From the IMG/VR virus record IMGVR_UViG_3300017714_002439: a DNA stretch of 64,000 bases, one strand, 5' to 3'. Below are positions 5,896 to 43,698 of this stretch, piece after piece. The translations under genes and the position numbers were made by a program. The notes below the pieces were generated by a model. The model saw nothing but the letters and a program-made list of their open reading frames with translations, was not told the origin of the DNA and searched no databases. Positions within the stretch are counted from its first letter, which is position 1, and every line of letters starts with the position of its first letter. The stretch is from a virus.

Positions 5896-5924
5896 TTGAC
5901 AACTAAACTAAACTGTAGTATACT
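5896..5924 (+). promoter_or_regulatory. sigma70 promoter, leaderless spacing to uvsW
   Basis: TTGACA-N17-TATACT-N6-ATG, no SD. Confidence 0.8.
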
Positions 5925-5930
5925 TGTAGT

Positions 5931-7385
5931 ATGAATTGTGCAATAGTAATAAAAGATGAAGTAAATTGTAAAATTGAAGGTCTCGACTTAAACACTAGAA
6001 AAAAATGCGAGAAAGAACTAAAGTTCTTTATGCCATATGCATTTCATGTGCCAGCATATAAGTTAGGTAGATGGGATGGGTGTGTAAGTTTTTTCAGTGT
6101 TGGTGGTGTTACTTATGTTAATCTACTTGATAGAGTCTTGCCCATTATTATGGATGCTGGATATCAAATCACAGTAGACGATAAGCGACAACAAAATGAA
6201 TCATTTGATTTTGCGGCTGTAGATGAATCTACATTTGCACATAAAGTTTGGCCAGATAATCATCAATTAGCAGGCGAGCCAGTTGTGCTTAGAGATTATC
6301 AGATTACTATTGTTAATAAATATTTAACCACACCACAATGTTTGCAAGAAATTGCCACAGGTGCAGGTAAGACACTTATCACAGCTGCTCTATCCGAACG
6401 TGTAGAAAAGTATGGAAGATCAATTGTTATTGTCCCAAACAAAGATTTGGTAAGGCAGACATTTGATGATTATGAAAACTTAGGACTTGACGTTGGAGTT
6501 TATTTTGGCGACAAAAAAGATATAGGACGCACCCATACAATATGCACATGGCAAAGTTTAAATAGTATCAAGAAAAGATTCAGAGATGGTCTAGACGATA
6601 TGAGTTTAAGAGAGTTTTCAGATGGAGTAGTTTGTGTTATTGTAGACGAAGTCCATCAAGCAAAAGCAGATGTTTTAAAAGACATGCTTACTAAGGAATT
6701 TGCACATATTCCTTTACGTTGGGGACTTACTGGAACTATACCAAAAGAAGATCATGCTAAAGCAAGTTTACAAGCATGTCTTGGAGAAGTTACAAATAAA
6801 TTAAGTGCAAGCGAATTACAAGACATGGGAGTTTTAAGTAACTGTCACGTTAATGTAGTTCAACTAAAAGAAACGGCGGTATACAATAATTATCAAAGTG
6901 AGTTAACTTACTTAACTACAGATAAAGAACGTATGAAGTATCTCAGTAGTTTTATTCAAACAGTTGCTGAAACAGGTAATACACTTGTATTAGTAGATAG
7001 AATTAAAGCAGGAGAAATAATTGCAGAAAATATACCAGATGTTACTTTTGTTAAAGGTGCTATGAAAGTCACCGACAGAAAGGACGCATATGATGAGATT
7101 AATGAAGCAACTAATAGCATCACTGTCGCAACCTACGGTGTGGCTGCCGTTGGTATTAATATTCCACGTATATTTAACCTTATACTTCTTGAACCTGGGA
7201 AGTCGTTTGTTAGAGTTATCCAGTCAATAGGACGTGGAGTTCGTAAAGCCGAAGATAAAGATTTTGTTCAAATTTGGGATGTGACAAGCACAGCCAAGTT
7301 CAGCAAAAAGCATCTTACAGAACGTAAGAAATTTTACAAAGAAGCTAATTATCCTTTTACTATTGAGAAGACTGATTGGCGTTAA
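5931..7385 (+). CDS. uvsW: UvsW-like SF2 DNA helicase
   Basis: LRDYQ Q-motif, ATGAGKT, DEVH, LTGT, QSIGRGVR. Confidence 0.9.
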   Translation: MNCAIVIKDEVNCKIEGLDLNTRKKCEKELKFFMPYAFHVPAYKLGRWDGCVSFFSVGGVTYVNLLDRVLPIIMDAGYQITVDDKRQQNESFDFAAVDESTFAHKVWPDNHQLAGEPVVLRDYQITIVNKYLTTPQCLQEIATGAGKTLITAALSERVEKYGRSIVIVPNKDLVRQTFDDYENLGLDVGVYFGDKKDIGRTHTICTWQSLNSIKKRFRDGLDDMSLREFSDGVVCVIVDEVHQAKADVLKDMLTKEFAHIPLRWGLTGTIPKEDHAKASLQACLGEVTNKLSASELQDMGVLSNCHVNVVQLKETAVYNNYQSELTYLTTDKERMKYLSSFIQTVAETGNTLVLVDRIKAGEIIAENIPDVTFVKGAMKVTDRKDAYDEINEATNSITVATYGVAAVGINIPRIFNLILLEPGKSFVRVIQSIGRGVRKAEDKDFVQIWDVTSTAKFSKKHLTERKKFYKEANYPFTIEKTDWR

Positions 7386-7398
7386 GAGAGAAATATAA

Positions 7399-7899
7399 AT
7401 GAAAATATTAACCGTAGAAAACAAGACCTACGATTTGGATGAGATACCCGAGACTATTGACGATTTAAGATATGGTATTCTTGATTATACAAATCCAAGC
7501 AACGTAGATTATTATTTTATTCCACTAGTGTTTTTAGAAAGCTTCTATGCACCAGCGGCAATATTACAAATTGGACAAGTAACTATTAGCATGCCACTTG
7601 ATTGGCATATTGTTATATGTGATTCAGAAGTAGGCGATCCAGAGGTGATGAGTCTTATGAGTCTAAACGATAGAGGATTTACAGCATTTGCATTTAATCC
7701 AATTACAGGATTTAAACCAGAATATGTAGATATTTCAATTGTAAACATATACAGTGATGTTAAATGGTATGCACCTAAACTAAAATATGGACACCTATTA
7801 TGTGTTCCATTAAGCGACAAACCAAATTCGCCTTGTGTATTATTTGTTAAAGATGCAAACAAGTTACCAGAAGTGCTTGACATTGCAGAGCTTTGGTAG
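7399..7899 (+). CDS. Hypothetical protein
   Basis: Intact ORF in operon, GAGAG SD-like. Confidence 0.7.
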   Translation: MKILTVENKTYDLDEIPETIDDLRYGILDYTNPSNVDYYFIPLVFLESFYAPAAILQIGQVTISMPLDWHIVICDSEVGDPEVMSLMSLNDRGFTAFAFNPITGFKPEYVDISIVNIYSDVKWYAPKLKYGHLLCVPLSDKPNSPCVLFVKDANKLPEVLDIAELW

Positions 7900-7905
7900 T
7901 ATAGT

Positions 7906-8019
7906 ATGTATTGGGCATGGTATAGCAAATTAAGAAAACAAGGATATCCTTGGTGGAATTGTTTGTTATGGGCTCGATATAATAATAAGCATTACGACAT
8001 AGATGGAAATTATAAATGA
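7906..8019 (+). CDS. Possible 37-aa Trp/Tyr-rich small protein (not in ORF track)
   Basis: MYWAWYSKLRKQGYPWWNCLLWARYNNKHYDIDGNYK fills the gap; stop overlaps the next ATG (ATGA). Confidence 0.35.
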   Translation: MYWAWYSKLRKQGYPWWNCLLWARYNNKHYDIDGNYK

Positions 8020-8474
8020 GTAAGTTAAACATCAAAGAAGAAATGAGATCTATTGATCAAAAAGATCGAGCTTGGTATGATAGTCTTACAGATGATGAGA
8101 AAAAGAAACTTGGCTTATGGTTATTAATGCGTTATACAAGTAATGCAAGCGGCAAGCATGCAGAACATTATTTAGAATGGACTAATGAAGCAGTTAATGT
8201 GCATTTTAATACAATAAGAAAACACCCACAGTTGCAATATCAATTGCTACAACTGGTTGGAATTGGTTCTACGGTATTCCATCCTTGGATAGCACCAGGT
8301 AAAGCGGGTAAGAAAAATAAACTACAGAGCTGGTTTGTAGAAAATTATTCACATCTAAATGATGATGAGATTGATATTATGTTAAGCAGTAGCAAAGATG
8401 AAATTAAAGCATTGCTACGTGAATACGGATTAAAGGACAAAGAAATAAAAGATCTCATTGGTAAACTTAAATGA
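8016..8474 (+). CDS. Probable clamp-loader small subunit (gp62-like)
   Basis: LWLLMRYTS...HPQLQYQLL pattern reminiscent of gp62; replication cluster context. Confidence 0.45.
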   Translation: MSKLNIKEEMRSIDQKDRAWYDSLTDDEKKKLGLWLLMRYTSNASGKHAEHYLEWTNEAVNVHFNTIRKHPQLQYQLLQLVGIGSTVFHPWIAPGKAGKKNKLQSWFVENYSHLNDDEIDIMLSSSKDEIKALLREYGLKDKEIKDLIGKLK

Positions 8475-9151
8475 CAGAAGTTTTTAAATGCGAATATTGT
8501 AATAAAGTATTTAAGCGTGAAAGCACTTTGTCTGTGCATATGTGCGAACGTAAACGCAGATACATGGCCAAAGAAGATAAAGACGTGCAACTTGCATTTA
8601 GATCATATCAATTGTTTTATCGTATAGGAACAAATTCAAAAAGTGCTAAATCATTTAATGACTTTGCATCAAGTCAGTATTATACTGCATTTGTAAAGTA
8701 TGCAAAATATTGTATAGAATTACGTGTAGATGATGTTCCTGAATATACACGTTGGTTATTAAAAAACCAAGTAAGAATTGATAGATGGACAAGCGATAGA
8801 AATTTTGCGTCTTGGATTAAAACAAGATTAAAAACAGAAAGTCCAGATAGAGCTATTGAAAGAACAGTTTTATTCTTAAAAGAATGGAGTAATGAATCTG
8901 GATATAATTGGAACGAATACTTCCGCACAGTGGCGCCAAATCTTGCTGTATTTCACATTTGTAGTGGTAAGATTAGTCCATGGATAGTATATGGAAGTTC
9001 GCAAGCACAAGGGCTATTAGACAAGCTCTCAAGTGAACAAATAAAGATGGTAACAGACTACATAGACCCATATCATTGGCAAAGAGTAATGAAAACAAAT
9101 GCTGAAGATTTTACATGGGTAGAAGGAATTTTAGAAGAGGCAAATTTATGA
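8471..9151 (+). CDS. Zn-finger-led replication-cluster protein (possible helicase loader)
   Basis: CEYC...HMC motif; helicase-loader role inferred from position only. Confidence 0.4.
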   Translation: MTEVFKCEYCNKVFKRESTLSVHMCERKRRYMAKEDKDVQLAFRSYQLFYRIGTNSKSAKSFNDFASSQYYTAFVKYAKYCIELRVDDVPEYTRWLLKNQVRIDRWTSDRNFASWIKTRLKTESPDRAIERTVLFLKEWSNESGYNWNEYFRTVAPNLAVFHICSGKISPWIVYGSSQAQGLLDKLSSEQIKMVTDYIDPYHWQRVMKTNAEDFTWVEGILEEANL

Positions 9152-9732
9152 TAGTAAACACAGACATTGACATTGATGTAGCAGATAGAAATAAGTTATT
9201 AGATTTAATTAAACATACACCTGCAATGATTAATGACAATGGTAGACGTAAGAAACACAACACTGGTGTATATTTCCATGAAATGCCAAGTGATCCATTT
9301 ACAGGGTTAAGCACAATAGATCATAAAGAAGCAGAAACCAAAGGTTATTTTAAATTAGATGTGTTAAATGTAAGTGTTTACAAAGATGTTGAAAGCTATG
9401 AACAATTAGATAAATTACTTGCAATGGAACCAATGTGGGATTTGCTTGAACACAAAGAAGTAGTTGAAAAACTATTTCATATACATGCACATTATGGTAT
9501 TGTAAGTAAAATGAAACCTACTAGTGTTGAAGAACTAGCGGCTGTGCTGGCAATTATTAGACCAGCTAAACGTGGGTTGTTAGGAAAAGATTGGAATACA
9601 GTATTTGCTACAGTATGGGATAAGCCTACAGATGGAACATATTATTTTAAAAAAGCACATGCAATAAGTTATGCAATGGCTATTGTATTACAGCTTAATA
9701 TGTTGGTTATGGGTTTTTCTTTAAAAGACTAA
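9148..9732 (+). CDS. Miniature DNA polymerase III alpha (DnaE)-like catalytic core, 194 aa
   Basis: DIDID, HNTGVY, FKLDVL, LAIIRP and FKKAHAISY motifs in DnaE order; start at ATG 9148. Confidence 0.75.
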   Translation: MIVNTDIDIDVADRNKLLDLIKHTPAMINDNGRRKKHNTGVYFHEMPSDPFTGLSTIDHKEAETKGYFKLDVLNVSVYKDVESYEQLDKLLAMEPMWDLLEHKEVVEKLFHIHAHYGIVSKMKPTSVEELAAVLAIIRPAKRGLLGKDWNTVFATVWDKPTDGTYYFKKAHAISYAMAIVLQLNMLVMGFSLKD

Positions 9733-10078
9733 TATTACGTCTTTTAATTCTTTTAGTAATACTATCACTTAATCTTACTTCAGGACCTGCAACCACTTCC
9801 ATTTGTTTTATATTAAAACTTTGGCTAGTATAACTAAACGGCCATCTATTTAAAAGTGCTATATTAATAGGTAACTTTCTATTTGTCTCCCACCACCATT
9901 CATCACCAAGTGCTAAAAACTTTTGTCTTTCAGGATTGGTTTGAATTCTATCGTAAACATACATAGTAGCAATTTGGTTATCAATATTTTGCATAATTCC
10001 CAGATACTCATTGCCTGCATATTCAATTACAGTCAAAAACGGAAATTCTTCTAATAATGTTTGATATTTTTTTATCAT
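9707..10078 (-). CDS. Hypothetical protein (start reassigned to MIKKY)
   Basis: TAAATA 8 nt upstream; the longer ORF runs through AT-rich intergenic DNA. Confidence 0.6.
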   Translation of the reverse strand: MIKKYQTLLEEFPFLTVIEYAGNEYLGIMQNIDNQIATMYVYDRIQTNPERQKFLALGDEWWWETNRKLPINIALLNRWPFSYTSQSFNIKQMEVVAGPEVRLSDSITKRIKRRNISLLKKNP

Positions 10079-10144
10079 TGTATATATATTTATTTTAAAT
10101 TTTTTCTGTGGTTTTTGCATAAATACATACACAGGAGAACATGA

Positions 10145-10978
10145 ATGTCAAATTACGCAACCACTTATAATATCAATCAAACAGGCGACCTTTACGCCGT
10201 TGATGCCACTAGTAGCAAAGCAGGACTAGGCAACTATGCTTCATCCACTGGCACTACTATAAACGCTCCTGTTAATTACAGGTTCTTAAAGCTATTTACC
10301 GGTTTAGATAATGAGTTCTTTTTTTACATTAAGAACATAGATCGTAAACCAATACAGTTGCAAGGACATACTATTACTGCTAATGTAGTTAATAGAGAAA
10401 CCCAGGCAAAATTATTATCAAAGAAATGTCAAATTGTTGACTATGATGAAGGCAAAGTTAAACTGGTTATTACATCCGGTGAAATGGCTGCAATTCAAAA
10501 CGGCTTCCTTGATCTAGTATTTACCTATGTAAATTCTCAAGGTTTAAATCTTCCATTATTTGTTGATCAAAATCTTAGACCAAATTATACAATAGAAGTA
10601 AGTAACCAAACACAAAGTATTCCACTACTATCAGCAGAAACAACTACATTTAATACTAGAGTAGAAGGAACAGACACATACTATTATAGTGGACACCTAC
10701 CAGGACCCGGTGCAAAAAACAAAGTTAATGGAATGGTTACTATAGCAGTATACACCACTAACTTTACAGGTAACTTTTTTATACAGGGTGCATTAGAAGA
10801 AAATCCAGCAGAATCCGATTGGTTTAACATTATATTAGGAACTTACACGGAAGAACATTACCCATATATCAATAGATCTGGAATTGATCCATGGACATTC
10901 AGAACTAATATTAAATATATTAGAGCAAGATTCACACAAACACAAGGAACACTTGACAAAGTCATCATAAGAGTGTAG
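10145..10978 (+). CDS. Probable virion structural protein
   Basis: TAAATA promoter and AGGAG SD; Thr/Asn/Gly-rich beta composition. Confidence 0.5.
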   Translation: MSNYATTYNINQTGDLYAVDATSSKAGLGNYASSTGTTINAPVNYRFLKLFTGLDNEFFFYIKNIDRKPIQLQGHTITANVVNRETQAKLLSKKCQIVDYDEGKVKLVITSGEMAAIQNGFLDLVFTYVNSQGLNLPLFVDQNLRPNYTIEVSNQTQSIPLLSAETTTFNTRVEGTDTYYYSGHLPGPGAKNKVNGMVTIAVYTTNFTGNFFIQGALEENPAESDWFNIILGTYTEEHYPYINRSGIDPWTFRTNIKYIRARFTQTQGTLDKVIIRV

Positions 10979-10981
10979 TAT
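10953..10981 (+). promoter_or_regulatory. sigma70 promoter embedded in upstream CDS, leaderless spacing to primase
   Basis: TTGACA-N17-TAGTAT-N6-ATG, no SD. Confidence 0.75.
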
Positions 10982-10987
10982 ATACAC

Positions 10988-11995
10988 ATGAGCTTAATGA
11001 TCGACTACGTTAGAAATCTGGTTCCGGTTAACTGGAAACAAAATCCAAGTGGCTGGACTTCTGGCAATTGTCCTATGTGTATAACAAATGGACAATCAAG
11101 ACCAGATACACGTGGACGAGGTGGTTTTCATTTTGAAGATGATAAGTTTCAATATCATTGTTTTAATTGTCATTATAAAACAGGGTTTTCGCCCGGTAAT
11201 AAAATTAATGATAGATTAAAAAAACTATTAGTGCAATTTGGTGCAGATCCTACACAAGTGCAACGTTTACAACTAGAGTTGTTGCGTGAACAAGATATTG
11301 CACAAACATTAATGGTGCAAGAGCGTAGAAAGAAACTAGTAATTGATTGGCCTACAGTAGCATTGCCAGACAATGCTAAACCTTTTATGGAACATACACC
11401 AACACCTGACTGGACAGAAGCAGTAACATATCTAACAGATAGAGGATTTGATATAACAGATCCTAGGCTGATGTATAGCCCTGCTAAATTGCCGGCTAGA
11501 ATGTTCAAACGTTTTGTAGTTCCATTTTATTATAAAGGTAATGTTGTAGGATATACAGCAAGATGGATAGGTAATCCACCAGATAAAATGCCAAAATATT
11601 TTAATCAACAACCACCTAAAAATTTTGTGTATGGGTTAGATAGACAGCATGCTGACAAAGAAATTGTTATATTGACAGAAGGCCCATTAGATGCTATAAT
11701 AACAGATGGAATCAGTGCAGGCACTAATACTATTAGCGATGAACAAGCAGACGTTATTTTAAGTTTAAACAAACAAATTGTTGTGTTACCTGATGCCGAT
11801 AAGGCAGGCATGCAAATGGTTAACGCAGCAGTTAAGTATGGTTGGAGTGTTGCATTTCCTGAATGGGATAATTGCAATGATGCCGGCGATGCCTTAACAA
11901 AATACGGTAGATTATTTACAGTGCGTAGTATATTAAATAGTGCAGTAAGTAACCCAACAAAAATACAAGTTTTAGGAAGGAATTATTGTAAATGA
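10988..11995 (+). CDS. DNA primase (gp61/DnaG-like)
   Basis: CPMC...CFNC Zn ribbon, TOPRIM TEGPLDA and PDADKAG. Confidence 0.9.
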   Translation: MSLMIDYVRNLVPVNWKQNPSGWTSGNCPMCITNGQSRPDTRGRGGFHFEDDKFQYHCFNCHYKTGFSPGNKINDRLKKLLVQFGADPTQVQRLQLELLREQDIAQTLMVQERRKKLVIDWPTVALPDNAKPFMEHTPTPDWTEAVTYLTDRGFDITDPRLMYSPAKLPARMFKRFVVPFYYKGNVVGYTARWIGNPPDKMPKYFNQQPPKNFVYGLDRQHADKEIVILTEGPLDAIITDGISAGTNTISDEQADVILSLNKQIVVLPDADKAGMQMVNAAVKYGWSVAFPEWDNCNDAGDALTKYGRLFTVRSILNSAVSNPTKIQVLGRNYCK

Positions 11996-13389
11996 GTGAA
12001 CAAAAAGAATACACACTAGAACTACAAAAATTATTTGTAGAGTTTTTGGCACATGATCAAGATTTATTTGTTCGTGTAAATGGTATATGTAATTCAGAAT
12101 ACTTTACAAGGGAATTACGTAAAACAGTAGAGTTCATTCAAGACCATGCAAACGAATATGGTGCATTACCAACACATGAGCAGATTGTAGCAACAACTGG
12201 GTTGGAATTACAAAGTTTAAAAGATATTGATCCTAGACATCACGATTGGTTTATAGACGAGTTTGAAACATTTTGTAAACATAAGGCATTAGAAAGTGCT
12301 ATATTAACTTCAACTGATTTACTTGAACAAGGTGAGTTTGGCGCAGTTGAGAAAATGATTAAAGATGCTGTAGGTATTGGACTTGCTAAACACATGGGAA
12401 CAGATTATTGGGAAAACCCAATGGAACGCATCGAACGTGTTCGTAACCAACGAGGTGGAACAAGCACAGGTTGGACTGAAATTGATAAAAAACTATATGG
12501 TGGATTTAATAGAGGCGAATTAAATATATTTGCTGCACCGTCAGGCGGTGGTAAGAGTTTATTTTTGCAGAACTTAGCATTAAACTGGGCATTAGAAGGA
12601 CATAATGTATTATATATTAGTTTAGAGCTTAGTGAAGAACTATGCAGTATGCGTCTTGATAGTATGTTAACAGGATACAACACAAAAGAAGTATTTAAAA
12701 ATGCAGAAGATGTTGGATTAAAAGTAGGAGCAATTAGTAAAAAAGCAGGCAACTTACAAATTGTGCAAATGCCTAATGGTGTAACAATAAATGATTTAAA
12801 TAGTTATATGAAAGAGTTTGAAGTAAAGAATAATGTTAAATTAGATGCAGTATTACTTGATTATTTAGACTTAATGATGCCAGCACAACGTAAAGTTCCG
12901 CCAAGTGACTTGTTTATTAAAGATAAATTTGTATCTGAAGAGTTACGTAACTTTGCAGTGGAAAAAGATTTGCTATTTGCAACCGCATCTCAGCTAAACA
13001 GAGCGGCAGTAGAAGAAGTAGAGTTTGATCACTCTCATATTGCAGGCGGTATTAGTAAAATTCAGACAGCTGATAACGTAATTGGTATTTTTACAAGCAC
13101 AGCAATGCGTGAACGTGGAAGATATCAAATTCAATTTATGAAAACACGTAGTAGTGCAGGTGTTGGACAAAAAGTTGATTTAGCATTTGATATTGCGGGC
13201 TTACGTATAACAGATCTGCCAGAAGATGAAGAACAAACACCTATGCATCAACCTAGTGCAATGATGGATAAAATAAAAAGAAATACAAATGTAACGCACC
13301 AAGAAAAAACTATTGCAGAAGAGAGCATTATTGAAGACACTGACGCTACCGACAGATTACGCAATATGTTGAAAAAAGTCAACAAATAA
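11992..13389 (+). CDS. Replicative DnaB/gp41-like helicase
   Basis: AAPSGGGKS, SLEL, LLDYLDL, TASQLNR, QFMKTR. Confidence 0.9.
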   Translation: MSEQKEYTLELQKLFVEFLAHDQDLFVRVNGICNSEYFTRELRKTVEFIQDHANEYGALPTHEQIVATTGLELQSLKDIDPRHHDWFIDEFETFCKHKALESAILTSTDLLEQGEFGAVEKMIKDAVGIGLAKHMGTDYWENPMERIERVRNQRGGTSTGWTEIDKKLYGGFNRGELNIFAAPSGGGKSLFLQNLALNWALEGHNVLYISLELSEELCSMRLDSMLTGYNTKEVFKNAEDVGLKVGAISKKAGNLQIVQMPNGVTINDLNSYMKEFEVKNNVKLDAVLLDYLDLMMPAQRKVPPSDLFIKDKFVSEELRNFAVEKDLLFATASQLNRAAVEEVEFDHSHIAGGISKIQTADNVIGIFTSTAMRERGRYQIQFMKTRSSAGVGQKVDLAFDIAGLRITDLPEDEEQTPMHQPSAMMDKIKRNTNVTHQEKTIAEESIIEDTDATDRLRNMLKKVNK

Positions 13390-13434
13390 CAGTAGAATAG
13401 ATAAATACAAGTAATAACAGTTGGAGTTGAGCTG

Positions 13435-13683
13435 ATGAAAAAAAGAACACGTAGTCTATTAGAAGAAATTAATAATCTATCACCTACAAAAGATAGAATT
13501 AATATACTAGAATCACGTGGCACTAATGCCATTAGTGCAATTATGAATGTATTAGAAATGGTAGATACAAATTATAGTTCAGAAGACGCTCAAGACATCC
13601 AAAAAAGAATAATGCTTAGTATTAAAAACAGAGATCCTGAACGTTTTAATAGAGGTATTAAGAATTTAAGGAATAAAAAATGA
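13435..13683 (+). CDS. Hypothetical protein
   Basis: TAAATA promoter, GGAG SD, coupled to next gene. Confidence 0.65.
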   Translation: MKKRTRSLLEEINNLSPTKDRINILESRGTNAISAIMNVLEMVDTNYSSEDAQDIQKRIMLSIKNRDPERFNRGIKNLRNKK

Positions 13684-14627
13684 ATATCCAAGATATTGTA
13701 GGCACAGTTAAGCGTAAAGATCGCAATAACAGAAAACATCGTAAGATTCAGCCTGACAATTTATATAAAGTAAACGTTAAAAACTTAAAAGAAGGCGGAG
13801 CAATGCCGGGCGTTGGGTTAATACATCATACTGAAATAGATGCTACATTAGATGCATTAGAAAAATCGTTGGGTATGCCATTAAAAGCAAATGTATTAGG
13901 TTCTGTAGGTAAAAAAGAATTTAGTGGAGATATTGATGTTGCAATTAATATACCAAAAGAAAAATTACAAGATTTTGCTTCAAAATTAGAAGCATCACCG
14001 CTTATACAAGACATAAAAAAATCAAGTGTGTTTATGACATCAGTTGATATTGTTGGATATAATGCAGAAAATACTAAACCAGGATTAAACAGAACAGGTA
14101 AAGTTCAAATTGACTTTATGCCAGGTGATCCAGATTGGATGAAAACATATTATCACAGCCCACATGAAAAAGGTTTTGATAAAGAAGGCGGACGCTCAAG
14201 CCAATATAAAGGCACATTCCGTAACATTATGTTAGCAACTATGGCCGCAATATATCAATCAAAAGAATCAGCTGAAAAAATTGAAGACGGACGTCCAGTA
14301 GAACAACAACGTTGGTTATGGAGTCCTGCAGATGGACTAAACTGGATATCACGTAAACCTAAACCTAAAGCAAATGGTGAAGGATATACTAAAGCAAGGA
14401 TTGACACTGTATTAAAAGGTCCGATTACAAACACACAAGAAATTGCAAAAGCACTTGGGTTAGATGGTCCAGAAGATTTATATAGTTTTGAAACGCTATT
14501 AGCAACGATCAAGAAAAACTATCCAAGTGATGTTTATACCAAAATAGTAGATGCATTTAAAGATAATGGACAAGTAAAAGACATGGGTATCCCATCAGAA
14601 TTAGAGGATACACCAAATGAAAATTAA
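13680..14627 (+). CDS. Pol-beta superfamily nucleotidyltransferase
   Basis: LGSVGKKEFSGDIDVAI (hGS-x-DhD) and VQIDFM third acid. Confidence 0.7.
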   Translation: MNIQDIVGTVKRKDRNNRKHRKIQPDNLYKVNVKNLKEGGAMPGVGLIHHTEIDATLDALEKSLGMPLKANVLGSVGKKEFSGDIDVAINIPKEKLQDFASKLEASPLIQDIKKSSVFMTSVDIVGYNAENTKPGLNRTGKVQIDFMPGDPDWMKTYYHSPHEKGFDKEGGRSSQYKGTFRNIMLATMAAIYQSKESAEKIEDGRPVEQQRWLWSPADGLNWISRKPKPKANGEGYTKARIDTVLKGPITNTQEIAKALGLDGPEDLYSFETLLATIKKNYPSDVYTKIVDAFKDNGQVKDMGIPSELEDTPNEN

Positions 14628-15732
14628 TGAAATTTTAATGGAAAAGGCCAGTGGTGCCAGAATCCAACATTTAGAAGATTTAATTATTTGGGACGGTAAA
14701 GCAGGTGCCCAAAAAGCAATCGCATCATTACATAGTTTAGAAAGTAATCCAGCAGATACAACTATCAAATGGGATGGATCGCCAGCAGTTATATTTGGAC
14801 GCAACGAAAATGGTGAGTTTATATTAACTGATAAAAGTGGATTTGGTGCAAAAGGATATGATGGTAGATCAAAATCACCAGATGAAATGGAATCCATGTT
14901 AAAGAATCGTCCAGGATATGCTAAAAATCCACAAGGGTATGGAGACTTCATTGGACAAATGAAAAAAGTTTGGCCTGCATTTGAACAAGCAACGCCAGAA
15001 GATTTTAGAGGCTATGTTCATGGTGATTTACTTTGGTTTGATAAACCAGGCACAGAAGAAGGTAGATTAATGTTCAAACCAAATACAACACAATACTCAG
15101 TTGATCCTGCAAGCGACATTGGAAAACAAATAGCAAACAGTCAAGTAGGTGTTGTGCTACATGCACATATCGACTTAGAAGGAAATAAAAGTAAAGTAGA
15201 TACTACTAGATTTCAAGAAGGTCCATTGTTAGCAATGCCTCCAGTATCAATTACAGATGTTCCAGATATTGAAAGTTCCAAATTAAGTGAACTTGAAAGT
15301 TTTATTACACAAGCAGGCAATGATATTGATGCAGTATTATCGCCACCAGCAGAACTTAAAATGAAAAACTTTGATGATATACTATACATGTATATGAACA
15401 ATTTAGCAAAAAATAGATCGGTAAATAGTATTGGTAGTAAGCACTTTGTTAAGTGGTTAACATCAGATGGGTCCAAAGTAAGTAGTGCTAAACAAGGTAG
15501 ACTTGTTGAATATTTAAAGCAACACCAAAAAGGACTTGATGCCATATTTGCATTTATACGCAGTATAGGACCTATTAAAGATAATATTATTGCACAACTT
15601 GATGCCAATCCAGCTGATATAGAAGCAACAACAGATGGACAAAAAGGCGGCGAAGGTTATGTAATTGGCAAAGATGTCAAACTAGTAAATAGATCAGGCT
15701 TTACAGCTGCAAACATGGCAAGGAATAATTAG
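14617..15732 (+). CDS. ATP-dependent ligase/capping-fold nucleotidyltransferase-like protein (DUF6267-like)
   Basis: TIKWDGSP (KxDG), HGDLLW, EGYVI, VKLVNR = ligase motifs I, III, IV, V. Confidence 0.6.
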   Translation: MKINEILMEKASGARIQHLEDLIIWDGKAGAQKAIASLHSLESNPADTTIKWDGSPAVIFGRNENGEFILTDKSGFGAKGYDGRSKSPDEMESMLKNRPGYAKNPQGYGDFIGQMKKVWPAFEQATPEDFRGYVHGDLLWFDKPGTEEGRLMFKPNTTQYSVDPASDIGKQIANSQVGVVLHAHIDLEGNKSKVDTTRFQEGPLLAMPPVSITDVPDIESSKLSELESFITQAGNDIDAVLSPPAELKMKNFDDILYMYMNNLAKNRSVNSIGSKHFVKWLTSDGSKVSSAKQGRLVEYLKQHQKGLDAIFAFIRSIGPIKDNIIAQLDANPADIEATTDGQKGGEGYVIGKDVKLVNRSGFTAANMARNN

Positions 15733-15927
15733 ATGTTAAGTAAACAATGCAAATTACACCTAGAAGAAGTAGGCGAAACACGTTGGGAACATTTTAAACA
15801 TGCAATGTGGGTTTCATGGCAACTAGAAAAGGCCGCATATGCGTGTTTTATACATGCGTTTGCACCACGCTGGTTCAAAACATATGCTAGTGGCAAATGC
15901 ACAGAAATATTAGAGAGTAGAAAATGA
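15733..15927 (+). CDS. Small hypothetical protein (DUF6356-like)
   Basis: HLEEVGETRWEHFKHA...ACFIHAFAP pattern. Confidence 0.5.
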   Translation: MLSKQCKLHLEEVGETRWEHFKHAMWVSWQLEKAAYACFIHAFAPRWFKTYASGKCTEILESRK

Positions 15928-16691: not shown

Positions 16692-16694
16692 GAC

Positions 16695-17525: not shown

Positions 17526-17530
17526 TAGTA

Positions 17531-23050: not shown

Positions 23051-23695
23051 ATGAAGTTAATCTTACATCAAAGTAAATCTATTAAATCTAACAATTCTAC
23101 ATTTCCAAGATGGGTGTATGATTGTGATACACATATACTTAAAATTATTCCAAATGGAACTTCCGCTTTATTCACAGCAGAACAGCTAAACAAAAATGCT
23201 AATGTAATTAATGAAACATTAGGTTTTAAATATTTTTATGGTATTGAAACTGTTGATAATTTTATCCACATGAATATCCACAAATTGGATAATGCAAATT
23301 ACAATCATACTATTAAAGAAGATTTTTTAGAAATGTTAGATATATGGATAGATATAAATCTGAAAATATTTCCATTATGTAATGTTGATATTAATGAAAA
23401 TAATATTAGGCTATATAAAGATAAGCCTGTATTAATTGATTGGGATGATGCATTACAAGGTAATAAGCATACAGCATTTTATATTATAGCAGAATTATAT
23501 AGGCATTGTATGGTATTTTTAGATCAACAAGAAGTTGTTGATTGTATACAACACCGCATACAATCAACTTGTTTAGAAATTGATATAAAACAATGGGATT
23601 GGATAATCAATAACTACCAACTTCGCGGATATGACTTTGAAAAAGTTTTGCATTGGAGTGAACTTCCTGACAGTTGGTTACTTAAAAAAGATTGA
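23051..23695 (+). CDS. Protein-kinase-like/APH-fold phosphotransferase
   Basis: NVDINENNI (HxDxxxxN-like) and VLIDWD (DFG-like). Confidence 0.5.
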   Translation: MKLILHQSKSIKSNNSTFPRWVYDCDTHILKIIPNGTSALFTAEQLNKNANVINETLGFKYFYGIETVDNFIHMNIHKLDNANYNHTIKEDFLEMLDIWIDINLKIFPLCNVDINENNIRLYKDKPVLIDWDDALQGNKHTAFYIIAELYRHCMVFLDQQEVVDCIQHRIQSTCLEIDIKQWDWIINNYQLRGYDFEKVLHWSELPDSWLLKKD

Positions 23696-23720
23696 CAACA
23701 TAAAGGTTTTAGTGTAACAT
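23692..23720 (+). promoter_or_regulatory. sigma70 promoter, leaderless spacing to exonuclease
   Basis: TTGACA-N17-TAACAT-N6-ATG, no SD. Confidence 0.75.
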
Positions 23721-23726
23721 ATAAGC

Positions 23727-24419
23727 ATGGCTGAATTAATCAAAATCTACGACTATAAAGAACTAAAGCGTCAAAGTGTAGACGGAAAGCGTCTATATGA
23801 AAATCCATATGGCGACCCAGTTCCAAGTGTCACAACAATTTTAGGTGCTACACAACCAGCAGAAAAGCGACAAGCATTAGCTAACTGGCGTAAACGTGTT
23901 GGAACAGAAGAAGCACAACGCATTACTACAACTGCCGCAAATCGTGGAACAGTTATGCACAATATATTAGAACATTGGGCATTGGGAGAATACGAAACAT
24001 ATAATCCTGGAAACAATATTGTTCATAGACAAGCCAAAGATATGGCACAAGTTGTTATTGAAAATATAGAAAATGATATTGATGAAATTTGGGGCACAGA
24101 AGTAAACTTATGTGCGGCAAATCTATATGCAGGAACAACAGATTTAGTTGGCATGTATAAAGGCAAGCCAACTATTATGGACTTTAAACAAACCAACAAA
24201 CCTAAAAAGCGTGAATGGATTGATGATTATTTCCTACAGGGTGCTGCATATGGATTAGCACACAACGAAATGTTTGGAACAGATATTAAGAATATTGCTA
24301 TTTTTATGTGCAGTGGAGATTGCGAATGGCAGTTGTTTGAGTCAGAAGAAGATGAATTTTCTTATTGGGCAACGCAATGGGCTAAAAGATTAGAGAAGTT
24401 TTATGGCATGTCTTCATAA
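23727..24419 (+). CDS. PD-(D/E)xK exonuclease (RecB/Cas4-like fold)
   Basis: PSVTTIL, GTVMH, YAGTTDL, IMDFKQ, QGAAY. Confidence 0.85.
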   Translation: MAELIKIYDYKELKRQSVDGKRLYENPYGDPVPSVTTILGATQPAEKRQALANWRKRVGTEEAQRITTTAANRGTVMHNILEHWALGEYETYNPGNNIVHRQAKDMAQVVIENIENDIDEIWGTEVNLCAANLYAGTTDLVGMYKGKPTIMDFKQTNKPKKREWIDDYFLQGAAYGLAHNEMFGTDIKNIAIFMCSGDCEWQLFESEEDEFSYWATQWAKRLEKFYGMSS

Positions 24420-32467: not shown

Positions 32468-32543
32468 GGGGGATTAGCTCAGATGGGAGAGCGCCTGATT
32501 TGCATTCAGGAGGTCGTCAGTTCGATCCTGATATCCTCCACCA
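32468..32543 (+). tRNA. tRNA-Ala(UGC)
   Basis: Full cloverleaf, GGGGGAT/ATCCTCC acceptor with G3:U70, TGC anticodon, encoded CCA. Confidence 0.95.
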
Positions 32544-40717: not shown

Positions 40718-41303
40718 GAAATGGTTAGACGAAGTATATGGTAAAACTAACAGTGAGTTATATGATAACTGGAACAATTATCATGAACAAGTTATAGATG
40801 GACTAGGCTGGAAGTGTCATATATTAGCAGCACAATGGATTGCTGATAACTTTGCAGAAGGAACAGAAGTTGCAGACATTGGATGTGGTAATGGACAAGT
40901 TGGAATAGGACTGCAAGCACATGATTACAAAATAGATGGATACGATATAAATCAACCTATGCTTGATAGATTTATAGCAAAGAATTACAGGTCAATACAA
41001 ATACATGATATAACTAAAGCACCACTACCTAAAAAATATAAATGTATAACAGCAATAGGTGTATTAACAATAGGACATGTTGATGCTAGTGCTTCAAAGA
41101 ATCTAGCTGATAGTTTAACTGATGATGGACTATTGTATTGTAGTATGGGCAAACATAATGTGGATTGGTATTTTGAAGGCGGGTGGAGTTCTCAAAAAGA
41201 TTTAGAAGTTATTAAAATTGAACCTATACATAGTTTAACTACACCAGAAGGTAATAAGCAATATCATAATATGATTACCTTTAAGAAGTCAAAAAAGACT
41301 TAA
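40710..41303 (+). CDS. Class I SAM-dependent methyltransferase
   Basis: VADIGCGNG, DGYDIN..ML, HDIT. Confidence 0.85.
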   Translation: MTKKWLDEVYGKTNSELYDNWNNYHEQVIDGLGWKCHILAAQWIADNFAEGTEVADIGCGNGQVGIGLQAHDYKIDGYDINQPMLDRFIAKNYRSIQIHDITKAPLPKKYKCITAIGVLTIGHVDASASKNLADSLTDDGLLYCSMGKHNVDWYFEGGWSSQKDLEVIKIEPIHSLTTPEGNKQYHNMITFKKSKKT

Positions 41304-42003
41304 TCTCTTTCCAATTTTTATCTTTAACATTTAGCACTAATTTATTATTAGTGTTTATTCTATCTTGCATGTTATGATAAAGCGTGTTCTTAACACTAAT
41401 TAAATATTCGGTCCAATATTCATCTTTCATTAATGTTCCGTGTGTTTTTTGAGCCCATATATCTGCTACAGTAAAGTCTTTCTTTATCTCACTCATACAT
41501 TTTAAAAATACTAAATGCGGATTATTTTCTGGCACAATGTCTGCCATTCTTAGCCACCCTGGAAATTTTGCAGTAGTTTTCATATAACGTTCTGCAAGTG
41601 GATCTATATCATGGATTAAATTAATTACTTTACAGTTAGGAAACCAATGTAATAGCTCTTTAGGCTTACTATGTGTGCAATACACGAACGATTTATCAGT
41701 ATCTGGTGCTAATTGCTTAAACTTTTCAGCAAACATACTATAATAATACTCTGGAAATGGAAAAAAGTCTTTAACATAATCCCATGTAGGTGGAAGTTTC
41801 CCATTTGGCACAATTCTATCAAAATGTGCTGGTGCAACCTTGCGTTGTCTTATTGTAGTATGTTTTGTATTAATGTTCCATGGATTAATTCCATTATCTA
41901 TATGGCTATACCAATATATATTTGGAAGAGTTGCAATTGTTCTTGCAAGTCTATGACCACCGCCACCTTGTTCAAAACTAACAAATATAATATTATTCAT
42001 CAA
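41281..42003 (-). CDS. Hypothetical protein, possible sulfotransferase-like P-loop fold
   Basis: IFVSFEQGGGGHRLAR and CTH...FPNCKVINL patterns. Confidence 0.4.
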   Translation of the reverse strand: MMNNIIFVSFEQGGGGHRLARTIATLPNIYWYSHIDNGINPWNINTKHTTIRQRKVAPAHFDRIVPNGKLPPTWDYVKDFFPFPEYYYSMFAEKFKQLAPDTDKSFVYCTHSKPKELLHWFPNCKVINLIHDIDPLAERYMKTTAKFPGWLRMADIVPENNPHLVFLKCMSEIKKDFTVADIWAQKTHGTLMKDEYWTEYLISVKNTLYHNMQDRINTNNKLVLNVKDKNWKEIKSFLTS

Positions 42004-42271
42004 TAGTCTCTACATGTATTCCACGTATCCATTCATACCATTCTTTGGATCGTCTTTTTGCTTCCATATGTTCTGGGTTATGAGCCCAATCTGTAACATC
42101 TTCTTTACTACGCCAAGTGCTAACAGTAATTTCAATATCACCTATCTCTTCGTTTGTAATAGAAACAAACCCTGAATGACTTTCAGCAAGTTCACGCATT
42201 CTTTTACTCATTGTTACATACTCACTTGGCATAGGTGATTTCATTTTTGCTATAAAAAATACTTTAATCAT
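41993..42271 (-). CDS. Antibiotic biosynthesis monooxygenase (ABM)-domain protein
   Basis: Y..MSKRM.ELA....GF.S, ITVSTW.S.E....W...PEH.EA. Confidence 0.8.
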   Translation of the reverse strand: MIKVFFIAKMKSPMPSEYVTMSKRMRELAESHSGFVSITNEEIGDIEITVSTWRSKEDVTDWAHNPEHMEAKRRSKEWYEWIRGIHVETIDE

Positions 42272-42425
42272 TTTCTTTTTTTAACTCTTCAATAACTTTT
42301 TTCTTAATTGGCATTGTAACAATAGATCCTGTTGTAACTTTATAACCACCTATTTGAAATAATGTAGGACCAATACACCCTGTTAACATAATGCACAGGC
42401 AAAAAATAGCTAAGGTGTTTATCAC
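42264..42425 (-). CDS. 53-aa putative lipoprotein (GTG start, not in ORF track)
   Basis: Hydrophobic N-terminus with LTGC lipobox; start and stop overlap neighbours. Confidence 0.55.
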   Translation of the reverse strand: MINTLAIFCLCIMLTGCIGPTLFQIGGYKVTTGSIVTMPIKKKVIEELKKEND

Positions 42426-43123
42426 TTTCTTCCTTTGTAATACAAGGTTCCTTGAGAATTTACTACAACATCATCTTGTGTATTAAACCAGCCACTGTAA
42501 ACACATATGTCACCATTCACAAAAAACTTACCATCTACAATATTCCATTTACAATAAAAATTATCTCCTAAAATAGTTGCATCTGGTATTGCATGTTCTT
42601 GGTAATATGCAACATCATTCATATTACGAAATACAGTATTAATAGCAGTAGGACCTACTTCACTCATACCCCAATTTGCCATAAATGTAGCTCCTTGTTT
42701 TACAAATGCTTCAATAATATCCCAATCAACTGGATCACTTCCTACTGTAACCCAAATACCAGTTAAGTCTAGATCGTAAAAGTTTTTAGTTTTCATTAAT
42801 GCACGACAATGTGCAGGAACTAAATGTGTATGTGTATAGTTATTAATTTTACTATTAAACGTATAAGCATTAAATGGCTCTACATCAATATGAGCACCTA
42901 CTGTAAAACCGGGTAATGTTTGTGCTAATAATCCACCTGCATGTTCCATTTTACAAACAGTGTATATTCTACTATCACTGTTTATGTTTTGACATTCAAC
43001 AGCAACTTTATTTGCCGCTGTTATTTTATTAATACTTTGACGTATTTCTTTAGGCTCACCAGTAGTTCCACTACTACGTATCACACCGCCTTTAAAAATC
43101 CAATCAGTTAGTTTAAGATCCAT
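42422..43123 (-). CDS. Truncated/minimal adenylate-forming enzyme
   Basis: SSGTTGEPK, H.GGL, NWGMSE, GWFNTQD, YYKGR at the very C-terminus. Confidence 0.75.
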   Translation of the reverse strand: MDLKLTDWIFKGGVIRSSGTTGEPKEIRQSINKITAANKVAVECQNINSDSRIYTVCKMEHAGGLLAQTLPGFTVGAHIDVEPFNAYTFNSKINNYTHTHLVPAHCRALMKTKNFYDLDLTGIWVTVGSDPVDWDIIEAFVKQGATFMANWGMSEVGPTAINTVFRNMNDVAYYQEHAIPDATILGDNFYCKWNIVDGKFFVNGDICVYSGWFNTQDDVVVNSQGTLYYKGRK

Positions 43124-43649
43124 TTCTTACTCTTTCATAATTCTCTATATCTAATAGCCATACATTTTGATTTACATTAAATATCTCTTCTTTGCCTAAA
43201 CAACATACAATATCATATTTTTCTAGTGTTAAAAAAGTTTTATTAACTTTTTGCATTCTACCACTTTGATCAGTATCTGTGTTTGTTGTTATATATAAAA
43301 ATGGATGTTCAGACATTGAGTGACCTTTAGCCCATTCAATTTGGTATGGTAACTGACTATAAAAGCAATAACTTTGCATATGATATCTGTTTAATCCGCA
43401 TGGTCTACTTTCAAGTTGAGCACCACGGAATAATAGACGCCACCCATCTTTAAATGGATGTATTCCACTAAGACTAATAATTTCATCTTTACTGTCATGT
43501 GTTGCAAACCACATGCCACCTTCTTCTAAACACCATTCAAACTTCATGGCTTTAAGAGAGTTATTATTTTTATATCCTAACTCATCACATTTTGTTAAAA
43601 AATTCATTAACTGTGGAGTCGGACTGGTTAACTTGGTCGTGTATATCAT
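43113..43649 (-). CDS. Hypothetical protein, possible GNAT fold
   Basis: Start at 43649 fits promoter spacing; GNAT-like strand pattern only weakly. Confidence 0.45.
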   Translation of the reverse strand: MIYTTKLTSPTPQLMNFLTKCDELGYKNNNSLKAMKFEWCLEEGGMWFATHDSKDEIISLSGIHPFKDGWRLLFRGAQLESRPCGLNRYHMQSYCFYSQLPYQIEWAKGHSMSEHPFLYITTNTDTDQSGRMQKVNKTFLTLEKYDIVCCLGKEEIFNVNQNVWLLDIENYERVRNGS

Positions 43650-43655
43650 GTTTAT

Positions 43656-43698
43656 ATTATATAATAAGGTTGACAATTTGTCAAGATCTACTTATAAT
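43656..43698. promoter_or_regulatory. Interlocked divergent consensus sigma70 promoters
   Basis: TTGACA-N17-TATAAT on both strands around the TTGACAATTTGTCAA palindrome. Confidence 0.85.

What the first reader, a model, noticed from the sequence alone, without database searches (positions are those of the whole stretch)
5896..43684. Core replication genes have sigma70 promoters spaced for leaderless mRNAs
Seen: four genes have TTGACA-N17-TAnnnT-N6-ATG with no SD: uvsW (5896..5931), primase (10953..10988), exonuclease (23692..23727) and the minus-strand gene starting at 43649. Two of the -35 boxes lie in or overlap the 3' end of the upstream CDS. Established: a sigma70 -10 box spans about -12 to -7, so +1 would be the A of ATG. 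Other sigma70 promoters in the window instead give AT-rich leaders with AGGA(G) SDs. Inference: the phage splits its genes into a leaderless class (DNA metabolism) and an SD-led class.
Basis: partly seen in the sequence, partly recalled or inferred. Interest (0 to 1): 0.8.

Follow-up and report, generated by a model that had tools for sequence, protein, structure and literature searches.

The report
Promoters fused to phage start codons
In this uncultured marine giant phage, four strong host-type promoters sit exactly one promoter-length before the ATG of a helicase, a primase, an exonuclease and an unknown gene. Their messages should therefore start on the start codon with no ribosome-binding leader. 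Hundreds of wild relatives keep this exact spacing, but leaderless messages as such are already known.

Summary
TTGACA-N17-TAnnnT-N6-ATG occurs four times in the window, against 0.04 expected. Each ATG is the first possible start of a real gene: UvsW-like helicase, primase, PD-(D/E)XK exonuclease, and an unknown 178-aa protein.

The N6 distance is under selection. It is kept in 26 of 28 strong primase promoters (99 to 33% aa identity) and in 57 of 63 distinct exonuclease upstream regions. Only the two hexamers are conserved there, and the start codon is always ATG. Outside the target genes, relatives hold 26 more N6 cases.

Leaderless mRNAs made by host sigma70 RNA polymerase are therefore the best reading (about 0.85). 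No 5' end has been mapped.

The proposed split into leaderless DNA-metabolism genes and SD-led genes is only partly right:
- Two differently built promoter classes do exist. The spacer palindrome plus GGAG leader is found in 19/66 leadered and 0/111 leaderless promoters.
- The leaderless set also holds non-replication genes, and DnaB and RNR are not leaderless here.
- A second promoter type, TAAATA-N5-ATG, has the same fused layout.

Cultured phage PA5oct keeps the primase layout with GTG, which gives a testable model. The scan noted this layout before on other jumbo-phage DNA. This is a new member of a known kind.

The parts
5896..5933 (+). Promoter fused to the start codon of the helicase gene: -35 TTGACA 5896-5901, 17-nt spacer, -10 TATACT 5919-5924, 6-nt discriminator tgtagt, ATG 5931 as predicted +1.
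   Evidence: Relatives L005-L009, L013, L015, L019, L075 keep N6; L010, L024, L030, L036, L079 have N5.
5931..7385 (+). UvsW-like SF2 DNA helicase, 484 aa. It is the first gene of the predicted leaderless transcript.
   Evidence: Pfam ResIII, DEAD and Helicase_C, and PHROG 16. Homologs align from residue 1-3.
10953..10990 (+). Promoter fused to the primase start codon: -35 10953-10958 inside the upstream CDS, -10 TAGTAT 10976-10981 (its TAG is the upstream stop codon), ATG 10988.
   Evidence: N6 is kept in 26 of 28 strong promoters of homologs at 99-33% aa identity. PA5oct has the same layout with GTG.
10988..13389 (+). Primase (10988-11995) followed by a DnaB-like helicase (11992-13389). The helicase start overlaps the primase stop (ATGA) and has an AAGGA SD, so it is an SD-led second gene of the unit.
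   Evidence: PHROG 47 and PHROG 19 / Pfam DnaB_C.
23692..23729 (+). Promoter fused to the exonuclease start codon: -35 23692-23697 (contains the stop TGA of CDS 23051-23695), -10 TAACAT 23715-23720, ATG 23727.
   Evidence: N6 is kept in 36 of 41 IMG/VR and 21 of 22 further metagenome upstream variants.
23727..24419 (+). PD-(D/E)XK exonuclease, 230 aa.
   Evidence: PHROG 298 at E 5.8e-57, and a weak Pfam PDDEXK_1 match.
43647..43684 (-). Perfect consensus promoter (TTGACA-N17-TATAAT) fused to the ATG at 43649 of the minus-strand gene. No gene lies upstream on that strand, so this promoter is its only evident source of mRNA.
   Evidence: L230 (94% aa) keeps it; more distant homologs (about 55%) do not.
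41281..43649 (-). Minus-strand unit headed by the leaderless gene: unknown 178 aa (43649-43113), AMP-binding fragment (43123-42422), small ORF (42389-42264), DUF3291 (42271-41993), unknown 239 aa (42000-41281).
43670..43738 (+). Divergent partner promoter TTGACA-N17-TATAAT with a 37-nt leader and GGAG SD before ATG 43736. Its -35 and the minus-strand -35 form the palindrome TTGACAATTTGTCAA (43670-43684).
1435..1499 (+). Example of the contrast class: GG-TTGACA, spacer palindrome GTAAGA-ct-TCTTAC, TATACT, 33-nt leader with AGGAG. Six others of this type start at 2289, 2710, 31358, 47952, 49568 and 51393.

Best explanation
These are real promoters for the host sigma70 RNA polymerase. They are placed so that the seventh base after the -10 hexamer, the usual start point, is the A of the start codon. 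Each transcript should therefore begin 5'-AUG with no untranslated leader and no Shine-Dalgarno site. It should be translated by direct binding of the ribosome and initiator tRNA to the 5'-terminal AUG. Later genes of the same unit, such as DnaB after the primase, use ordinary SD-led or coupled initiation.

Shown here: the motifs, their excess over chance, the conserved exact spacing, the ATG-only start, the lack of an SD, and the weakly folded 5' ends.

Inferred: the start point at the A, and leaderless translation itself.

The phage builds its sigma70-type units in two ways. One is this fused form. The other has a leader, often with a palindrome in the promoter spacer. This points to separate regulation of the two sets. 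Replication genes are enriched in the fused set, but the set is not limited to them.
For: 1. Excess over chance. The full pattern occurs 4 times against 0.04 expected. The core promoter occurs 17 times against 2.0, and 16 of the 17 lie on the + strand, on which almost all genes of the window lie.
2. Each ATG is the first start codon of its ORF, or for the minus gene the first ATG. In-frame stops lie 12-15 nt upstream in three cases. Homolog N-termini align from residue 1-3.
3. Phylogenetic footprint. The columns of TTGAC(A) and TA...T carry 2.0 bits, against mostly 0-1.2 bits (at most 1.7) elsewhere. No indels fall between the -10 and the ATG. N6 is kept in 26/28 primase, 36/41 plus 21/22 exonuclease, and 8 uvsW upstream variants. 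The start codon is ATG in all 64 cases with N17 and N6.
4. A survey that excluded the target genes found 26 more unique promoters at d=6, 4 at d=5 and 1 at d=7. A broad second mode lies at 24-37 nt.
5. Position -1 is a pyrimidine in all four window sites and in 33/33 exonuclease relatives. This fits the known preference of RNA polymerase for a pyrimidine at -1 and a purine at +1 (established knowledge).
6. The first 45 nt of the four predicted mRNAs fold weakly (-0.8 to -4.4 kcal/mol, z 0.07 to 1.07), and the AUG is unpaired.
7. Pseudomonas phage PA5oct keeps TTGACA-N17-TATAAT-N6-GTG at its primase. No other start codon lies before the zinc finger.
8. Class contrast. The spacer palindrome is found in 0/111 leaderless and 19/66 leadered promoters. 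An SD-like word is found in 0/111 and 52/66.
9. Precedent. Thermus phage phiYS40 makes most middle and late transcripts without a leader (PMC3594737). A -10 adjacent to ORFs drives leaderless genes in Deinococcus-Thermus (PMC12340547).
Against: No RNA 5' end has been mapped. Only assembled contigs of public runs were available, and these cannot show a start.

Three of the four genes lie 9-43 nt behind an upstream gene on the same strand. Read-through transcripts with coupled or re-initiating translation could also feed them.

The host is unknown, so its ability to translate leaderless mRNA is unknown.

In most uvsW relatives (53 of 67 upstream variants) no promoter abuts the gene. In RaK2, GAP32, Phosso, Atu_ph07, EC.P1 and Vibrio phage 2.275.O the same genes are SD-led. 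The layout is therefore not obligatory.

A loose promoter consensus is not enriched at all in this AT-rich DNA (96 found against 94.9 expected). Only stringent matches carry weight.
Confidence: 0.85

Rival explanations
1. The promoters are real, but the proteins are made mainly from longer read-through transcripts. Ribosomes that finish the upstream gene re-initiate at the nearby SD-less ATG (coupling or 70S scanning). The fused position of the promoter would then be a by-product of genome compaction rather than a leaderless design.
For: The gap from upstream stop to ATG is 9 nt at the primase, 31 nt at the exonuclease and 43 nt at the helicase. About a third of all genes in the window lack a recognisable SD and are tightly packed, so SD-less coupled starts are common here. 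In many uvsW relatives the gene has no promoter and directly follows the upstream stop.
Against: Compaction does not explain why the distance is exactly 6 nt in 26/28 and 57/63 diverged variants with no indels. Nor does it explain the sharp d=6 peak against a second mode at 24-37. The minus-strand gene has no upstream gene at all. Several relatives place a terminator directly before the fused promoter (L009, L010, L013, L015, L025, L050, L075), which rules out read-through there.
Confidence: 0.1
2. The four matches are chance or compositional look-alikes in AT-rich intergenic DNA and do not act as promoters.
For: A loose sigma70 consensus is no more frequent than in shuffled sequence (96 against 94.9).
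Against: The stringent pattern occurs 4 times against 0.04 expected and the core 17 times against 2.0. The hexamers are invariant while flanking bases drift in relatives down to 33% aa identity.
Confidence: 0.02
3. The promoters are real but start 1-3 nt away from the A. A start upstream would give a very short leader. A start downstream would force use of a later start codon.
For: RNA polymerase can start 6-9 nt after the -10 (established knowledge). Relatives tolerate N5 (10 cases) and N7 (3 cases). Gene 61290 in the window lies 11 nt behind its -10, which predicts a leader of about 5 nt.
Against: The A lies at the modal start position and follows a pyrimidine. No conserved in-frame ATG or SD lies downstream: codon-4 Met of the primase is not conserved, and none exists in the helicase or exonuclease. 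N-terminal residues and length are conserved from the first ATG.
Confidence: 0.05

Closest known systems
Leaderless transcription units of Thermus phage phiYS40 (Sevostyanova et al. 2007, as summarised in PMC3594737)
   Same: It is a large lytic phage in which a whole set of genes is transcribed from promoters placed so that the mRNA has no leader. SD-led genes sit beside them in the same genome.
   Different: phiYS40 infects a Deinococcus-Thermus host, where leaderless mRNAs are the norm, and its leaderless set is the middle and late genes. Here the promoters have a full -35/-10 sigma70 consensus. The nearest cultured relatives infect Proteobacteria. Replication genes are prominent in the set. 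The temporal class is unknown.
Leaderless genes with a -10 box adjacent to the ORF in Deinococcus-Thermus and Actinobacteria (PMC12340547, PMC3160421, PMC4633059)
   Same: TAnnnT lies a few bases before the start codon, there is no SD, and the spacing to the ORF is specific.
   Different: Those are cellular, genome-wide habits, often without a strong -35. Here it is a phage lineage trait with a perfect TTGACA at 17 nt, and it is limited to a subset of units.
Phage lambda cI mRNA from PRM (leaderless; own knowledge, cited in PMC12340547 as Shean and Gottesman 1992)
   Same: A sigma70 promoter starts transcription at the A of the AUG of a phage gene.
   Different: It is a single regulatory gene of a temperate phage, weakly translated. 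It is not a conserved set of replication enzymes in a lytic giant phage.
Primase promoter of the RaK2 / GAP32 / PA5oct jumbo phage group
   Same: The synteny is the same: virion protein, primase, DnaB-like helicase. A promoter directly precedes the primase. PA5oct has the fused N6 layout.
   Different: RaK2 and GAP32 keep a leader of about 30 nt with an AAGGA-type SD. PA5oct uses GTG instead of ATG. The PA5oct paper lists 32 TTGAC/TATAATA promoters but does not mention leaderless mRNAs (PMC7318152).

Membership tests
sigma70-type (housekeeping) bacterial promoter | -35 hexamer TTGACA and -10 hexamer TAnnnT separated by 17 +/- 1 bp | tested here: met
   All four sites have a perfect TTGACA, N17 and TAnnnT. 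The core is 8.5-fold enriched over shuffles.
sigma70-type (housekeeping) bacterial promoter | The hexamers are conserved in relatives while the spacer sequence is free | tested here: met
   The hexamer columns carry 2.0 bits, against mostly 0-1.2 bits (at most 1.7) elsewhere, in 8, 23 and 33 distinct sequences.
sigma70-type (housekeeping) bacterial promoter | Transcription by host RNA polymerase holoenzyme starts from the site | not testable with these tools
   This needs in vitro transcription or in vivo 5' end mapping.
Leaderless mRNA gene | The transcription start coincides with the first base of the start codon | tested here: inconclusive
   It is predicted from the N6 geometry and the conserved spacing. 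The only RNA hint is one contig of a run guessed to be RNA that ends at 5930, one base before the ATG. Contigs cannot prove a start.
Leaderless mRNA gene | No Shine-Dalgarno sequence before the start codon | tested here: met
   None is present in the four window sites, and 0 of 111 fused promoters in window plus relatives have one.
Leaderless mRNA gene | The start codon is AUG, which is strongly preferred for 5'-terminal initiation | tested here: met
   ATG in 64/64 N17-N6 cases and in 22/22 further metagenome cases. The exception is PA5oct, with GTG. The background use of ATG in the window is also very high, so this feature has weak discriminating power.
Leaderless mRNA gene | An accessible, unstructured 5' end | tested here: met
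   The minimum free energy is -0.8 to -4.4 kcal/mol, no better than shuffles, and the AUG is unpaired in all four.
Leaderless mRNA gene | Translation starts on the 5'-terminal AUG without a leader | not testable with these tools
   This needs toeprinting, reporter fusions or N-terminal proteomics.
phiYS40-like class-wide leaderless programme | The leaderless genes form one temporal class, and infection shifts the host IF2/IF3 balance | not testable with these tools
No time-course data exist. This was not re-tested here.

The most novel reading that the evidence does not exclude
The two sigma70 promoter designs are a built-in regulatory switch.

Early auxiliary genes carry an operator-like palindrome (AAGA-N1-3-TCTT) in the promoter spacer and a GGAG leader. 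A phage repressor acting at the palindrome could shut them off. So could a RegB-like RNase that cuts GGAG ribosome-binding sites, as in T4; an earlier unchecked note reports such a domain elsewhere in this genome.

Replication genes have neither the operator nor a ribosome-binding site. They would be immune to both controls and keep being expressed. Leaderlessness would then be a way to escape the phage's own early shut-off.
Probability: 0.15. Interest if true: 0.7.

Novelty: new member of a known kind. Interest (0 to 1): 0.45.

Why it matters
Leaderless mRNAs are usually treated as rare and poorly translated in Proteobacteria and their phages. Here a large, globally distributed clade of marine giant phages keeps a promoter fused to the start codon of core replication genes over deep divergence. 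At least one cultured Pseudomonas phage does the same at its primase.

This bears on three things:
- Gene calling. SD-based start prediction will misplace such starts. The annotated PA5oct primase start lies inside the promoter.
- Host prediction. The host ribosomes must handle 5'-terminal AUGs.
- Timing of phage gene expression. Two differently built promoter classes exist in one genome.

It also gives ready-made minimal expression cassettes of 38 bp, running from the -35 to the ATG.

Tried and rejected
1. RNA 5' ends. The public runs that hold this DNA are kept only as assembled contigs. When laid on 5400-24400 they gave no table of molecule starts. One 944-nt contig of a run guessed to be RNA ends at 5930 with 4 unaligned letters. 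Other contigs of that library end in adapter-like letters, so this is at most a weak hint.

2. Metagenome contigs of the exonuclease were searched for contigs that begin at the ATG. None did. All carry upstream DNA, so they served only as extra comparative data.

3. The ORF at the window's left edge (tgtagt-ATG at 7) looked like a fifth case. An 88%-identical relative shows coding-like sequence and no promoter upstream. Rejected.

4. Gene 5555-5887 lies 10 nt behind a TTGACA-N19-TAGAAT match. It is better explained by TAAATA-N5-ATG.

5. Pelagibacter phage HTVC008M has no match to the sigma70-N6-ATG pattern.

6. In PA5oct, three further pattern matches are not at gene starts.

7. The supplementary promoter table of the PA5oct paper is not held. 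The phiYS40 paper is not held.

8. The loose promoter scan is uninformative in this AT-rich DNA.

9. No near-identical cultured phage exists. No whole genome is held for the window.

10. Literature searches for leaderless genes in T4-like, jumbo or cyano-phages found no description of this layout.


Full report
**Observation**

The four sites were read directly and recovered by an exact pattern search.

| Gene | Strand | -35 (TTGACA) | -10 | ATG |
|---|---|---|---|---|
| Helicase | + | 5896-5901 | TATACT 5919-5924 | 5931 |
| Primase | + | 10953-10958 | TAGTAT 10976-10981 | 10988 |
| Exonuclease | + | 23692-23697 | TAACAT 23715-23720 | 23727 |
| Unknown 178 aa | - | 43684-43679 | TATAAT 43661-43656 | 43649 |

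The full 38-nt pattern occurs 4 times against 0.04 expected from 100 dinucleotide-preserving shuffles, and no shuffle reached 4. The promoter core TTGACA-N17-TAnnnT occurs 17 times against 2.0 expected. A loose consensus is not enriched in this 34% G+C DNA (96 against 94.9; composition). Only stringent matches are used below.

**The genes and their starts**

- 5931-7385 is an SF2 helicase (ResIII, DEAD, Helicase_C; PHROG 16). Its relatives in cultured jumbo phages are annotated UvsW.
- 10988-11995 is a primase (PHROG 47).
- 23727-24419 is a PD-(D/E)XK exonuclease (PHROG 298).
- 43649-43113 has no family match.

Each ATG is the first start codon of its ORF. For the minus gene it is the first ATG; a TTG 27 nt upstream lies inside the promoter spacer. 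In three cases an in-frame stop lies 12-15 nt upstream.

Homolog N-termini align from residue 1-3. The helicase begins M-x-C-x-[IL]-[IV]-I-K-D-E-V in about 80 relatives. No SD-like word precedes any of the four.

The primase -35 is inside CDS 10145-10978, and that gene's stop TAG is the start of the -10. The exonuclease -35 contains the stop TGA of CDS 23051-23695.

**Bimodal layout in the window**

Among the 17 perfect promoters, the distance from the -10 to the ATG of the next gene falls into groups:
- 6 nt, four times;
- 11 nt, once (gene 61290, a cupin);
- 25-52 nt, nine times, each with an AGGA/GGAG-type word before the ATG.

Three promoters lie far from the next gene start or inside a gene (7877, 11672, 25553).

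**Conservation in relatives**

IMG/VR relatives were fetched for each gene, and marine metagenome contigs for the exonuclease. Only distinct upstream sequences were counted, and only strong promoters: at least 5/6 in the -35, and TAnnnT.

| Gene | Identity range of relatives | Result |
|---|---|---|
| Primase | 99 to 33% aa | N6 in 26 of 28 |
| Exonuclease | 97 to 66% aa | N6 in 36 of 41, plus 21 of 22 new metagenome variants |
| Helicase | down to about 60% aa | 8 at N6, 3 at N5, 1 each at N7, N8 and N11; 53 of 67 have no adjacent promoter |
| Minus-strand gene | 94% aa | Only the closest relative keeps it |

Anchored at the ATG, information content is 2.0 bits at TTGAC(A) and at the T, A and final T of the -10. 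It is mostly 0-1.2 bits (at most 1.7) at other positions. No indels fall between the -10 and the ATG. This is the footprint of a promoter whose distance to the start codon is itself selected.

The start codon is ATG in all 64 N17-N6 cases. Position -1 is C or T in all four window sites and in 33/33 exonuclease relatives. That fits the known pyrimidine(-1)/purine(+1) preference at transcription starts.

Several relatives have an intrinsic terminator directly before the fused promoter. There the unit truly starts at that point.

**A survey not biased by the query genes**

I scanned all fetched flanks and excluded the query genes' own promoters. TTGACN-N17-TAnnnT is followed by an ORF-opening ATG (80 aa or more) at these distances:

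| Distance (nt) | Unique promoters |
|---|---|
| 6 | 26 |
| 5 | 4 |
| 7 | 1 |
| 0-13, other values | 4 |
| 24-37 (broad second mode) | about 42 |

The additional fused genes include a DnaB-like helicase and a PHROG 11758 protein. The rest had no family match or were not scanned.

**Two promoter designs**

I pooled the window and its relatives, giving 111 distinct fused promoters (d 5-7) and 66 leadered ones (d 20-45).

| Feature | Fused | Leadered |
|---|---|---|
| Spacer palindrome AAGA-N1-3-TCTT | 0/111 | 19/66 |
| SD-like word | 0/111 | 52/66 |
| GGAG | 0/111 | 33/66 |
| GG directly before the -35 | not typical | typical |

The seven palindrome promoters in the window start at 1435, 2289, 2710, 31358, 47952, 49568 and 51393.

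Of the 10 promoter-proximal genes scanned from the non-fused set (nine SD-led plus the cupin gene 61290), five have no family match. The others are three proteins of unknown function, an AAA ATPase, a Vut_1 transporter, an NAD-binding oxidoreductase and the cupin. None is a replication gene.

Replication genes are enriched in the fused class. The label is not clean, for these reasons:
- The minus-strand unit encodes an AMP-binding fragment and a DUF3291 protein.
- DnaB is SD-led and coupled to the primase in this window.
- RNR lies about 139 nt behind promoter 25553.
- A second fused layout, TAAATA-N5-ATG, sits at nine gene starts (13 matches against 3.3 expected). Those genes include three radical SAM enzymes and a zeta-toxin-like kinase. 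The word resembles the T4 late promoter (own knowledge).

**Depth of the trait**

The block virion protein, primase, DnaB helicase is syntenic in cultured jumbo phages.
- RaK2 and GAP32 have a -10 element and a leader of about 30 nt with an SD before the primase.
- Vibrio phage 2.275.O has a terminator and an SD.
- PA5oct has TTGACA-N17-TATAAT-N6-GTG, and no other start codon lies before the zinc finger. Its annotated start, a GTG two codons earlier, lies inside the discriminator.

The promoter before the primase is therefore old, and lineages differ in whether a leader is present.

For uvsW and the exonuclease, the cultured relatives PA5oct, Phosso, EC.P1, pEa_SNUABM_19 and Atu_ph07 are SD-led. 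Within the close relatives, one gene shows the reverse change. The PHROG 11758 gene is fused to its promoter in L005 and L006. In the window, about 104 nt lie between promoter 7877 and ATG 8016.

**RNA data**

Marine RNA-labelled runs hold up to 42% of the sampled words, but only as assembled contigs. One 944-nt contig with no mismatches ends at 5930, one base before the ATG. Contigs cannot show a start, and the library's contigs often end in adapter-like letters. I count this as a weak hint only. The predicted 5' ends fold weakly and leave the AUG free.

**Mechanism**

Host sigma70 holoenzyme should bind the -35 and -10 and start at the seventh base after the -10, the A of the ATG. That base position is established knowledge of promoter geometry. 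The 5'-AUG mRNA should then be bound directly by ribosomes, and downstream genes of the unit use an SD or coupling.

The read-through-plus-coupling rival is possible for three of the genes. It does not explain the fixed 6-nt distance, the terminators in relatives or the minus-strand gene.

**What is known**

Leaderless mRNAs are well known:
- lambda cI;
- Actinobacteria and Deinococcus-Thermus, where a -10 lies adjacent to ORFs (PMC12340547, PMC3160421, PMC4633059).

A phage with a whole leaderless gene class is also known: phiYS40 (PMC3594737). In contrast, dRNA-seq of phiKZ found no leaderless transcript (PMC8244752), and AR9 leaders are 26-491 nt long (PMC5312081).

Full-text searches found no description of this layout in T4-like, jumbo or marine phages. 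The PA5oct paper lists promoters without noting it.

Earlier notes of this scan report the same layout on other marine and freshwater jumbo-phage DNA and in PA5oct. My PA5oct result was obtained before I read those notes.

**Verdict**

- The leaderless reading is well supported by sequence and comparison, but it has not been tested at the RNA level.
- The functional class label is only partly right.
- This is a new member of a known kind, of moderate interest.

Noticed in passing
window 1435, 2289, 2710, 31358, 47952, 49568, 51393 (+): Seven SD-led sigma70 promoters carry a palindrome in the 17-nt spacer, for example CAAGA-ca-TCTTG or GTAAGA-ct-TCTTAC. The flanking bases change in a compensating way, and a GG precedes the -35. 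The core word AAGA-N1-3-TCTT is found in 19/66 leadered promoters of window plus relatives and in 0/111 fused ones. It looks like an operator for an unknown dimeric regulator.
   Followed up: partly
window 43670-43684: Two perfect consensus promoters stand back to back. Their -35 hexamers form the palindrome TTGACAATTTGTCAA. One drives a leaderless minus-strand unit and the other an SD-led oxidoreductase gene.
   Followed up: partly
window 7877-8019: Promoter 7877-7905 is fused (N6) to the PHROG 11758 gene in relatives L005 and L006. In the window, about 104 extra bases lie between the promoter and ATG 8016. They hold a 37-codon Trp-rich ORF (7906-8019) whose stop overlaps the ATG (ATGA).
   Followed up: partly
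window 4799-4812 (-), 4816, 5544, 32585, 47442, 48388, 48572, 52267, 55177 (+): TAAATA-N5-ATG sits at nine gene starts without an SD (13 matches against 3.3 expected). The genes include three radical SAM enzymes, a zeta-toxin-like kinase and unknowns. The word resembles the T4 late promoter, which would put +1 on the A again. This is the subject of a separate finding of the scan.
   Followed up: partly
L241 (NC_071039.1 145855-145892): The PA5oct primase has TTGACA-N17-TATAAT-N6-GTG. The annotated GTG start, two codons upstream, lies inside the promoter discriminator and is probably misplaced. It may be a leaderless GUG start in a cultured Pseudomonas phage.
   Followed up: partly
window 11672-11700 (+): A perfect TTGACA-N17-TATAAT promoter with TG before the -10 lies inside the primase gene, about 290 nt before the DnaB start at 11992. 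It may be an internal promoter for the helicase. In distant relatives (L130 group) DnaB has its own fused promoter.
   Followed up: no
window 25553-25581 (+): A perfect consensus promoter lies inside ORF 25228-25662, about 139 nt before the ribonucleotide reductase large subunit gene (25721). This is a long leader of unknown role.
   Followed up: no
window 4799-4829: A radical SAM gene on the minus strand and an unknown gene on the plus strand diverge with only 25 bp between their ATGs. Each has TAAATA-N5-ATG. The minus gene's upstream TTGACA overlaps the plus gene's start codon.
   Followed up: no
window 32280-32543 (+): Two tRNA genes are present: Thr (TGT) and Ala (TGC).
   Followed up: no
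window 61250-61292 (+): A perfect consensus promoter lies 11 nt before the ATG of a cupin gene. This predicts a leader of about 5 nt without an SD, an intermediate between the two layouts.
   Followed up: no
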